Virus record (IMG/VR): IMGVR_UViG_3300045988_066369
Location: 88,892-152,891 of that record
Strand: one strand, 5' to 3'
Origin: a virus
Length of the DNA stretch: 64,000 nt
Part shown: piece after piece, positions 44,864 to 44,935 of the stretch
Layout of the letters: the number at the start of each line of letters is the position of its first letter
Position numbering within the stretch: position 1 is the stretch's first letter
Made by a program: the position numbers and the translations under genes
Notes under the pieces: generated by a model
Databases searched by the model: none
What the model was told of the DNA's origin: nothing
Seen by the model: only the letters and a program-made list of their open reading frames with translations

Positions 44864-44935
44864 TGCCCTATGGTGTAATGGTTAGCACAGATGACTCTAA
44901 ATCATTTAGTCTGGGTTCGAATCCTAGTAGGGCAA
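44864..44935 (+). tRNA. amber suppressor tRNA-Sup (anticodon CTA), paralogous to the phage tRNA-Gln(TTG)
   Basis: Acceptor tgcccta/tagggca, D-arm identical to tRNA-Gln (tggtgtaatggttagcac), anticodon stem gatga/tcatt loop ctctaaa, T-arm ctggg-ttcgaat-cctag. Confidence 0.8.

What the first reader, a model, noticed from the sequence alone, without database searches (positions are those of the whole stretch)
44864..44935. Amber suppressor tRNA(CUA), derived from the phage tRNA-Gln, sits at the head of the late operon
A plus-strand 72-nt cloverleaf has the anticodon loop ctCTAaa, which is complementary to UAG. Its D-arm is identical to the phage tRNA-Gln(TTG) at 29992-30063, and its T-arm is near-identical (tggtgtaatggttagcac; gtctgggttcgaatcctag versus gtctaggttcgagtcctag). 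The acceptor stem carries compensatory changes. This argues that TAG is decoded as glutamine. It is the first plus-strand RNA gene after the divergent promoter region, upstream of all heavily recoded genes. That places it as the switch that licenses late translation, and read-through of host TAG stops would be a side effect. The ORF track mistranslates it as the N-terminus of ORF 44878..45180.
Basis: partly seen in the sequence, partly recalled or inferred. Interest (0 to 1): 0.75.

Follow-up and report, generated by a model that had tools for sequence, protein, structure and literature searches.

The report
Phage glutamine amber-suppressor tRNA, already known

Summary
A canonical 72-nt tRNA with anticodon CUA lies at 44864-44935 (+). 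ARAGORN finds it and Rfam scores it at 66.5 bits. Across relatives its cloverleaf is 100% paired, with 9 compensatory pairs. Its closest paralogue in the window is the phage tRNA-Gln(UUG) at 29991-30063 on the minus strand: 79% identity, identical D-arm.

Reading TAG as sense raises plus-strand ORF coverage of 44-64 kb from 0.33 to 0.855. TAG supplies about half of the Gln codons in terminase, portal and tail genes. Among relatives, CAA/CAG is 11-fold enriched as the alternative at TAG columns.

The "head of the late operon" reading is only partly right. Two recoded genes (4 and 1 TAG) lie upstream of the tRNA in the same unit. The genes just downstream are TAG-free. A minus-strand gene cluster separates this unit from the structural block. 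A temporal switch role is untested.

A second Gln-like tRNA lies at 42512-42582 (-), just 3' of a RAGATH-14 RNA. Its anticodon is UUA here, but CUA, CUG or a degraded loop in relatives.

The phenomenon is already published (Yutin 2021; Borges 2021 preprint; Peters 2022; a 2025 Zeta crAss-like phage survey). Interest is low.

The parts
44864..44935 (+). Amber suppressor tRNA(CUA), Gln-type. The body runs through discriminator A. CCA is not encoded; the following bases are C, G.
   Evidence: ARAGORN. Rfam 66.5 bits. Cloverleaf 100% paired with 9 compensatory pairs across 7 variants. CUA is conserved in the 43 relatives that carry it.
29991..30063 (-). Phage tRNA-Gln(UUG), the closest paralogue of the suppressor.
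   Evidence: 79% identity, identical D-arm. Rfam 66.3 bits.
44007..44323 (.). AT-rich divergent intergenic region at the strand switch and GC-skew minimum.
   Evidence: ORF map. GC skew changes sign at about 44 kb. Sequence.
44265..44272 (+). Candidate Bacteroidetes-type -7 promoter box TAACTTTG, with TTTG about 20 nt upstream. Inferred start of the tRNA's transcription unit.
   Evidence: Motif scan. The box sits at the same offset (-598 to -604) in clade relatives. This is a consensus match only, not evidence of function.
44324..44725 (+). Gene A, 133 aa, unknown function, 4 in-frame TAG. Lies upstream of the tRNA.
   Evidence: Translation and orthologues in L001, L003 and L004. No PHROG hit.
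44718..44858 (+). Gene B, 46 aa, 1 in-frame TAG. Its stop codon lies 5 nt before the tRNA.
   Evidence: A gene is called at the same place in L004.
44953..45180 (+). First ORF downstream of the tRNA, 75 aa, no TAG. The mechanical ORF 44878..45180 wrongly extends into the tRNA.
   Evidence: L004 gene call 2511-2738, 17 nt after the tRNA.
49329..63909 (+). Recoded structural/late block, the client genes. Includes TerL 50508-52871 (20 TAG), portal 53063-55234 (28 TAG), tail protein 60500-62317 and a reverse transcriptase 62635-63909. TAG is 2.5% of codons, about half of all Gln codons.
42512..42582 (-). Second Gln-like suppressor-type tRNA. Anticodon UUA in this window; CUA, CUG, a 6-nt loop or a deleted D-arm in relatives.
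   Evidence: ARAGORN. Rfam 57.9 bits. Variants in relatives.
42609..42779 (-). RAGATH-14 RNA, ending 26 nt 5' of the minus-strand tRNA.
   Evidence: Rfam RF03145, 172.7 bits against a gathering score of 149.1. Same linkage in L005, L012, L013, L021 and L182.

Best explanation
The feature is a functional phage-encoded amber suppressor tRNA of the glutamine family, in a large (about 185-190 kb) crAss-like gut phage, probably of the Zeta group. That phage uses genetic code 15 (TAG = Gln) for part of its genome.

Shown here:
- A canonical, selectively maintained cloverleaf with an invariant CUA anticodon.
- Dense in-frame TAG in terminase, portal, tail and other plus-strand genes.
- TAG interchanging with CAA/CAG among relatives.
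- A standard-code replication/tRNA block on the minus strand.

Inferred:
- The tRNA is co-transcribed with two small recoded genes. The transcript would start at a host-type promoter in the divergent region at about 44.27 kb.
- It is excised by host RNase P and a 3' processing enzyme, and receives CCA post-transcriptionally.
- It is charged with Gln by the host GlnRS, which tolerates CUA anticodons.
- It then competes with RF1 at UAG so that full-length late proteins are made.

It is necessary for expression of the recoded genes. Whether it sets the timing is not shown. Its position inside a recoded unit, separated from the structural block, argues that it is a co-expressed decoder rather than an upstream master switch.
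For: tRNA reality. Covariation: 100% of cells paired, 9 pairs changed on both sides, 0 of 500 shuffles reach the observed score, and slid controls pair only 42-52%.

Conservation: a syntenic CUA tRNA lies 5-9 kb upstream of TerL in 43 of the related loci. It has 9 sequence variants, all with anticodon CUA.

Recoding: TAG-as-sense lifts plus-strand ORF coverage of 44-64 kb from 0.33 to 0.855. TGA-as-sense gives 0.37 and TAA-as-sense gives 0.40. TerL, portal and tail identities are from PHROGs. In late genes TAG and CAR are each 2.5% of codons.

Gln assignment: 12 of the 20 TerL TAG columns are near-invariant Q in 120 homologues. TAG and CAA/CAG swap in both directions between relatives. Gln is 11-fold enriched, and CAA, two mutational steps from TAG, is the top alternative codon. 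Standard-code homologues L048 and L054 carry Q at TAG columns about 5-fold above background. The suppressor is 79% identical to the phage tRNA-Gln and shares U1:A72 and A73 with it.

Literature: TAG to Gln and suppressor tRNAs in crAss-like phages (PMC7886860); proteomic proof of code 15 in crAss-like phages (PMC9523058). RefSeq crAssphage cr52_1 has a CUA tRNA annotated tRNA-Gln 15 nt upstream of a recoded TerL.
Against: - No direct evidence of expression, aminoacylation or amino-acid identity for this phage.
- The E. coli GlnRS identity set is only partly met: C3:G70 instead of G3:C70, A73 instead of G73, A38 instead of U38. In the L001 clade pair 2:71 is also inverted.
- In distant standard-code homologues Glu is as frequent as Gln at TAG columns (9 against 7 of 38 cells).
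- A second tRNA (UUA) at 42512-42582 could also read UAG by wobble.
- No GlnRS or release-factor gene was seen among the large ORFs of the window, so charging must rely on the host. That is an assumption.
Confidence: 0.88

Rival explanations
1. The tRNA is the first element of the late operon and acts as the temporal master switch: late genes stay untranslatable until it is made, and host TAG read-through is a by-product.
For: The tRNA lies about 860 nt from the strand switch. All structural genes further downstream on the same strand are recoded. The model is published (Borges et al., bioRxiv 10.1101/2021.08.26.457843).
Against: Two recoded genes (5 TAG in 179 codons) precede the tRNA in the same unit, so recoded messages appear no later than the tRNA. 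The next three genes have no TAG. A minus-strand cluster (45946-46943; up to 3.3 kb in L001) interrupts the path to the structural block. Relatives L029 and L037 are recoded but have no CUA tRNA within 9 kb upstream of TerL. No timing data exist.
Confidence: 0.25
2. The tRNA's primary role is as an anti-host weapon. It causes read-through of host UAG stops to cripple host or defence proteins, and phage recoding is secondary.
For: This was proposed for crAss-like phages (PMC7886860). It was also proposed for Zeta phages that carry CUA tRNAs without any recoding (PMC12386605).
Against: In this genome 113 in-frame TAGs sit in essential late genes, so decoding them is obligatory. The two roles are not exclusive. 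Nothing in the window tests host effects.
Confidence: 0.1
3. UAG is decoded mainly by the minus-strand tRNA at 42512-42582 (UUA here, CUA in relatives), and the plus-strand tRNA is redundant.
For: The minus-strand tRNA sits in the standard-code block next to the tRNA array and could be made earlier. It carries CUA in many relatives. A UUA anticodon can wobble-read UAG (established knowledge).
Against: The minus-strand tRNA is variable and decaying. Its anticodon is CUA, UUA or CUG; L019 and L020 have a 6-nt loop; L178 has lost the D-arm; the 67-72% TerL clades lack it altogether. The plus-strand tRNA has an invariant anticodon and compensatory stem changes. A strong UUA suppressor would also read TAA, the main stop codon of the phage (13 of 18 plus-strand genes).
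Confidence: 0.05
4. The tRNA inserts an amino acid other than Gln (Glu, Lys, Tyr, or pyrrolysine as ARAGORN's label suggests).
For: ARAGORN labels it 'Pyl'. Glu is common at TAG columns in distant homologues. The E. coli GlnRS identity set is incompletely met.
Against: Gln is enriched 11-fold at TAG columns, Glu 1.6-fold and Lys 1.5-fold. The nearest paralogue is tRNA-Gln. The tRNA has G18G19, a TTCGAAT T-loop, a 5-bp anticodon stem and an 8-nt D-loop, none of which fits tRNA-Pyl (sequence; tRNA-Pyl features from established knowledge). Proteomics in other crAss-like phages shows Gln (PMC9523058).
Confidence: 0.04

Closest known systems
Suppressor tRNA(CUA) of code-15 (TAG to Gln) crAss-like phages, especially the Zeta group (Yutin et al. 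2021, PMC7886860; Zeta survey 2025, PMC12386605)
   Same: A large genome: relatives' contigs are 178-193 kb. TerL is distantly related to Crassvirales TerL. There are many tRNAs and a DGR-type reverse transcriptase. The replication block uses the standard code and the structural block is TAG-recoded. The phage encodes its own CUA tRNA of Gln ancestry.
   Different: Nothing substantive. This window adds local detail: the tRNA is embedded after two recoded genes, and a second, decaying Gln-like tRNA lies next to RAGATH-14. Zeta membership is inferred from TerL and genome size only.
CrAssphage cr52_1 (Buchavirus copri, NC_055888): a CUA tRNA annotated tRNA-Gln immediately upstream of TerL
   Same: A CUA tRNA on the same strand as, and upstream of, a TAG-recoded terminase (11 TAG).
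   Different: In cr52_1 the tRNA is 15 nt from TerL. Here it is 5.6 kb away, with unrecoded genes and an opposite-strand cluster in between. The TerL proteins are only 28% identical.
Code-switch model and 'code change module' of Borges et al. (bioRxiv 10.1101/2021.08.26.457843)
   Same: A suppressor tRNA in a phage whose structural genes are recoded while replication genes use the standard code.
   Different: No aaRS or release factor accompanies the tRNA in the window. The tRNA's own unit is itself recoded, whereas the model's code-change genes are in standard code.
E. coli supE (glnV amber suppressor, tRNA-Gln CUA)
   Same: A Gln-family tRNA with a CUA anticodon that GlnRS can still charge (established knowledge).
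   Different: supE is a single anticodon mutation of a host tRNA. The phage tRNA differs from its Gln paralogue at 15 of 72 positions, including acceptor pairs 3:70 and 4:69.
Theta (HDV-like) ribozyme-associated suppressor tRNAs of gut phages (Kienbeck et al. 2024, PMC10879173)
   Same: A suppressor tRNA in a recoded gut phage. A structured RNA (RAGATH-14) abuts the second tRNA.
   Different: There is no ribozyme 3' of the plus-strand tRNA: only 17 nt separate it from the next ORF. RAGATH-14 lies 5', not 3', of the minus-strand tRNA, and it has no demonstrated activity.

Membership tests
Canonical elongator tRNA | 7-bp acceptor stem, 4-bp D stem, 5-bp anticodon stem, 7-nt anticodon loop with U33, G18G19, T-loop TTCRANY | tested here: met
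   66.5 bits; all 21 pairs paired in all 7 variants.
Amber suppressor tRNA | Anticodon CUA at positions 34-36 | tested here: met
   CUA is conserved in the 43 relatives that carry the tRNA.
Amber suppressor tRNA | In-frame UAG codons in genes that need read-through | tested here: met
   113 TAG in 4555 late codons, and TerL and portal are intact only if TAG is sense.
tRNA-Gln identity class (GlnRS substrate, E. coli rules) | U1:A72, G2:C71, G3:C70, G10, U35, A37, U38, G73 | tested here: inconclusive
   U1:A72, G2:C71, G10, U35 and A37 are present. C3:G70, A38 and A73 deviate. The phage's own tRNA-Gln(UUG) also has A73. The host's GlnRS rules are unknown.
tRNA-Gln identity class | Closest sequence relative is a bona fide tRNA-Gln | tested here: met
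   79% identity to the window's Gln(UUG) against at most 70% to any other window tRNA. Outside CPR tRNA-His, the shared D-arm occurs in tRNAs with anticodon UUG or CUG, including tRNA-Gln(UUG) genes on contigs labelled Bacteroides/Bacteroidales.
Genetic code 15 phage (TAG = Gln) | TAG columns align with Gln in homologues | tested here: met
   (Gln 11-fold enriched, CAA the top alternative codon).
Genetic code 15 phage (TAG = Gln) | Peptides with Gln at TAG positions | not testable with these tools
   Shown only for other crAss-like phages (PMC9523058).
tRNA-Pyl | 6-bp anticodon stem, small D-loop without G18G19, no canonical T-loop, pylS/pylBCD genes nearby | tested here: not met
   The sequence has an 8-nt D-loop with GG, TTCGAAT and a 5-bp anticodon stem. 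No pyl genes appear among the annotated ORFs.
Theta-ribozyme-linked suppressor tRNA | HDV-like ribozyme with its cleavage site at the tRNA 3' end | tested here: not met
   Only 17 nt separate the tRNA from the next start codon. No HDV-like hit appears in 40-50 kb at E<=1. I did not check whether Rfam 15 holds a theta ribozyme model.
Borges 'code change module' | Suppressor tRNA together with an aaRS and/or release factor, in standard code, directly upstream of recoded lysis genes | tested here: not met
   No aaRS or RF domain in the ten largest minus-strand ORFs or in the plus-strand ORFs scanned. The neighbouring genes A and B are themselves recoded. Only one third of the genome is in the window.
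Zeta crAss-like phages | crAss-type TerL, 145-192 kb genome, many tRNAs | tested here: met
   The best annotated TerL matches are Crassvirales, at 25-28% identity. Relatives' contigs are 178-193 kb. The window has about 25 tRNAs.
Zeta crAss-like phages | crAss signature genes (MCP, IHF, giant RNAP) and placement in a TerL phylogeny | not tested
   These genes were not identified in the window, and no tree was built.

The most novel reading that the evidence does not exclude
The lineage uses two Gln-type suppressor tRNAs flanking the divergent region. One, linked to RAGATH-14, sits on the standard-code (early) strand. The other sits inside a recoded unit on the late strand. RAGATH-14 would be a dedicated processing or regulatory RNA for the early copy, playing a 5' role comparable to that of theta ribozymes. 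Together they would form an early-to-late relay for the code switch. In this genome the early copy has drifted to UUA.
Probability: 0.1. Interest if true: 0.55.

Novelty: already known. Interest (0 to 1): 0.2.

Why it matters
Recognising the tRNA and code 15 is essential for annotating this window correctly. Under the standard code the terminase, portal and tail genes shatter into fragments, and a spurious ORF is read through the tRNA. Biologically it is one more instance of a published phenomenon. The local layout gives a small, testable caution against the simple 'tRNA first, late genes after' picture: a recoded unit contains the tRNA, unrecoded genes follow it, and the second tRNA copy is decaying.

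Tried and rejected
- Megablast of 43-50 kb against GenBank phages found only a tRNA-sized match. There is no close annotated relative, so context came from IMG/VR, Logan and ENA loci.
- The sigma-70 promoter and terminator scan of 42.3-45.3 kb gave no more than shuffles do. I replaced it with a Bacteroidetes -7 motif scan, which is only suggestive (6 sites against 4.0±2.0 expected).
- A genome-contig scan with the shared D-arm was meant to find a host tRNA-Gln source. It returned mostly CPR tRNA-His genes and phage-like contigs binned as Bacteroides, so it gives no host inference.
- Two pattern scans looked for RAGATH-14 outside this clade. They found only the same phage clade or chance matches.
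- Literature and supplement searches for RAGATH-14 found nothing.
- TGA or TAA recoding is rejected: there is no gain in ORF coverage comparable to TAG.
- Recoding of the minus-strand block is rejected: its ORFs are intact under the standard code. Only 4 of 56 end in TAG, each with a back-up stop within 6-16 codons.
- tRNA-Pyl is rejected on structure.

Full report
**The observation**

ARAGORN finds 22 tRNAs in the window. Twenty-one are on the minus strand. One is on the plus strand at 44864-44936, with anticodon CTA. Rfam's tRNA model scores it at 66.5 bits (E=4.5e-13; gathering score 29) over 44864-44935. The sequence has:
- a 7-bp acceptor stem beginning U1:A72;
- a D-loop with G18G19;
- a 5-bp anticodon stem and the loop CUCUAAA;
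- a TTCGAAT T-loop;
- discriminator A, with no encoded CCA.

The mechanical ORF 44878..45180 does start inside the tRNA. The plausible start is ATG 44953 (75 aa), and gene callers place it there in the near-identical locus L004.

**Relationship to tRNA-Gln**

The best match among the window's other tRNAs is tRNA-Gln(UUG) at 29991-30063, which is on the minus strand. Identity is 79%; the next best is Thr at 70%.
- Positions 6-25 (the D-arm) are identical.
- The T-arm differs at two bases.
- Acceptor pairs 3:70 and 4:69 are inverted G:C to C:G.
- Three of the five anticodon-stem pairs also differ.

The two genes are therefore old paralogues, not a recent anticodon mutant pair. In bacterial genomes the shared D-arm occurs mostly in CPR tRNA-His. 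Most of the remaining hits carry a Gln anticodon (UUG or CUG). The ones I inspected include tRNA-Gln(UUG) genes on contigs labelled Bacteroides or Bacteroidales. One of these, DXLM01000001.1 (186 kb), is 95% identical to the window over 1 kb. It is evidently the same kind of phage binned as a bacterium.

**Is the tRNA under selection?**

Terminase-anchored searches recovered four Logan/ENA loci and 49 IMG/VR loci, most from 178-193 kb contigs. Forty-three of the relatives carry a plus-strand tRNA(CUA) 5-9 kb upstream of TerL. It occurs in nine sequence variants, all with anticodon CUA.

I tested seven sequences: six suppressor variants plus the Gln paralogue. The cloverleaf is paired in 100% of cells. 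Nine pairs change on both sides. None of 500 shuffles reaches the observed covariation. Slid controls pair only 42-52%. This is a functional tRNA.

**Is TAG recoded, and to what?**

Treating TAG as sense raises plus-strand ORF coverage of 44-64 kb from 0.33 to 0.855. TGA-as-sense gives 0.37 and TAA-as-sense gives 0.40. The restored ORFs are:
- a large terminase subunit (50508-52871, 20 TAG);
- a portal protein (53063-55234, 28 TAG);
- a tail protein;
- a reverse transcriptase;
- others.

In these genes TAG and CAA+CAG are each 2.5% of codons.

The evidence that TAG means Gln is as follows.
- Twelve of the 20 TerL TAG columns are near-invariant Q in 120 database homologues. Many of those homologues are themselves recoded, so I checked codons directly.
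- TAG and CAA/CAG replace each other in both directions between relatives.
- Over 65 TAG columns in 12 recoded TerL genes, CAA is the commonest alternative codon, although it is two mutational steps from TAG. Gln is 11-fold enriched, Glu 1.6-fold and Lys 1.5-fold.
- Two standard-code homologues (L048 and L054; 49% and 43% identity, no TAG) have Q in 7 of 38 cells against a 3.5% background. Glu is equally frequent there.

With the tRNA's Gln ancestry and published proteomics for other crAss-like phages (PMC9523058), TAG = Gln is well supported. It has not been shown directly for this phage.

**Context**

The minus-strand block (1-44 kb) is intact under the standard code. It encodes DnaB-like and SNF2-like helicases, an AAA ATPase, NAMPT and the tRNA array. 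Only 4 of its 56 ORFs end in TAG, each with a back-up stop within 6-16 codons. GC skew changes sign at about 44 kb.

From the divergent intergenic region (44007-44323), the plus-strand order is:
1. a candidate Bacteroidetes -7 box TAACTTTG at 44265, conserved in position in the clade;
2. gene A, 44324-44725 (133 aa, 4 TAG);
3. gene B, 44718-44858 (46 aa, 1 TAG);
4. the tRNA, 5 nt after gene B's stop codon;
5. three small genes without TAG (44953-45901);
6. a minus-strand cluster (45946-46943; larger in L001);
7. an exonuclease and a GroES-like gene, almost free of TAG (47058-49118);
8. the heavily recoded structural genes, from 49329 onward.

So the tRNA is not upstream of all recoded genes. 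It is not the first gene of its unit, and it is not contiguous with the structural operon. Relatives L029 and L037 are recoded but lack a CUA tRNA within 9 kb of TerL.

**The second tRNA**

A Gln-like tRNA lies at 42512-42582 (-) with anticodon UUA (57.9 bits). Its 5' end is 26 nt downstream of a RAGATH-14 RNA (RF03145, 172.7 bits).

In relatives the same tRNA is variable:
- it carries CUA in many loci;
- it carries UUA in several loci;
- it carries CUG in L044;
- it has a 6-nt anticodon loop in L019 and L020;
- it has lost its D-arm in L178;
- it is absent from the more distant clades.

This looks like a redundant copy under relaxed constraint, in contrast with the invariant plus-strand tRNA. 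RAGATH-14 stays 26-55 nt upstream of it in the relatives examined. It also persists where the tRNA has decayed (L178). I found no description of its function.

**Mechanism**

Shown: a maintained CUA tRNA of Gln ancestry, and obligatory TAG read-through in late genes.

Inferred: co-transcription with genes A and B, host RNase P and 3' processing, post-transcriptional CCA addition, charging by host GlnRS, and competition with RF1. No aaRS or release factor was seen in the window.

The 'switch' idea is the published hypothesis of Borges et al.. The layout here fits a co-expressed decoder better, because recoded messages flank the tRNA. Timing cannot be judged from sequence.

**Comparison with what is known**

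- Yutin et al. 2021 (PMC7886860) described crAss-like phages, including the 145-192 kb Zeta group. Their suppressor tRNAs enable UAG or UGA read-through, mostly in late genes. They also described suppressor origin from tRNA-Gln.
- A 2025 survey tabulates Zeta genomes with CTA suppressors, amber recoding and DGRs (PMC12386605).
- RefSeq crAssphage cr52_1 has a CUA tRNA annotated tRNA-Gln 15 nt upstream of a recoded TerL.
- TerL of this window is 25-28% identical to Crassvirales TerLs.

The finding is therefore a correct identification of an already known kind of element in an already described phage group.

**Verdict**

Novelty: already known. Interest: 0.2.

Noticed in passing
window 42512-42582 (-) and 42609-42779 (-): A second Gln-like tRNA with an ochre-type anticodon UUA sits 26 nt 3' of a RAGATH-14 RNA (172.7 bits). 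In relatives the tRNA's anticodon is CUA, UUA or CUG, or the gene is degraded. RAGATH-14 stays 26-55 nt upstream, and persists in L178 where the tRNA has lost its D-arm. TAA is the phage's main stop codon, so an active UUA suppressor would be awkward.
   Followed up: partly
window 62635-63909 (+): A reverse transcriptase (phrog_1423, E=7e-113; YADD motif) with 4 in-frame TAG lies next to tail genes. It is probably a diversity-generating retroelement, as reported for Zeta crAss-like phages. Template and variable repeats were not searched.
   Followed up: no
window 38634-38700 (-), 37949-38015 (-), 29171-29247 (-): Rfam finds three more tRNAs that ARAGORN missed. Read from the fold, the first has anticodon UCU (Arg) and the second UGG (Pro). 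The third is weak (31.6 bits) and atypical.
   Followed up: partly
window 23676-23758 (-): A tRNA (52.9 bits) that ARAGORN calls 'Tyr (ata)'. The minimum-free-energy fold gives it a 15-nt anticodon loop. It may contain an intron or be aberrant.
   Followed up: no
window 40656-40732 (-); L033 772-850 (-): A weak RAGATH-1 hammerhead-like hit in the window (28 bits, below the gathering score). Relative L033 has a hit above threshold (59.6 bits) in the corresponding region upstream of its suppressor tRNA.
   Followed up: no
window 42780-43560: About 780 nt between RAGATH-14 and ORF 43560-44006 has no long ORF on either strand under any of the tested codes. Only a 64-codon minus-strand ORF (about 43320-43513) is visible. 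The region could hold small genes or more non-coding RNA.
   Followed up: no
L001 about 750-789, L033, L035, L038, L047 (immediately 5' of their tRNA(CUA)): In the more distant clades the suppressor tRNA is directly preceded by a conserved perfect hairpin (TAGCTAGTT...AACTAGCTA). The window's clade lacks it. It may be a processing or transcription signal.
   Followed up: no
P0003; L044 10001-13522; L049 10001-13529: Some relatives' terminase genes are about 1.1 kb longer and carry intein/homing-endonuclease domains (PF05204, PF05203, PF14528). The window's TerL has no such insert.
   Followed up: no
L106 (DXLM01000001.1, 186,052 bp, labelled Bacteroides sp. MAG HRGM_Genome_0403): This 186,052-bp contig, filed under a 'Bacteroides sp.' MAG, is 95% identical to window 29642-30696 and has the same Ser-Phe-Gln tRNA order.
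   Followed up: partly
window 19535-19801, 21248-21673, 22130-22804, 41455-41919 (all -): The only four minus-strand ORFs that end in TAG. Each has a TAA or TGA back-up stop 6-16 codons downstream, as expected if TAG is leaky in infected cells.
   Followed up: partly
window 8507-10057 (-), 11935-12951 (-), 31278-33236 (-): Auxiliary genes in the standard-code block: a nicotinamide/nicotinate phosphoribosyltransferase, an OmpA-like beta-barrel outer-membrane protein and an SPFH/Band-7 protein.
   Followed up: no
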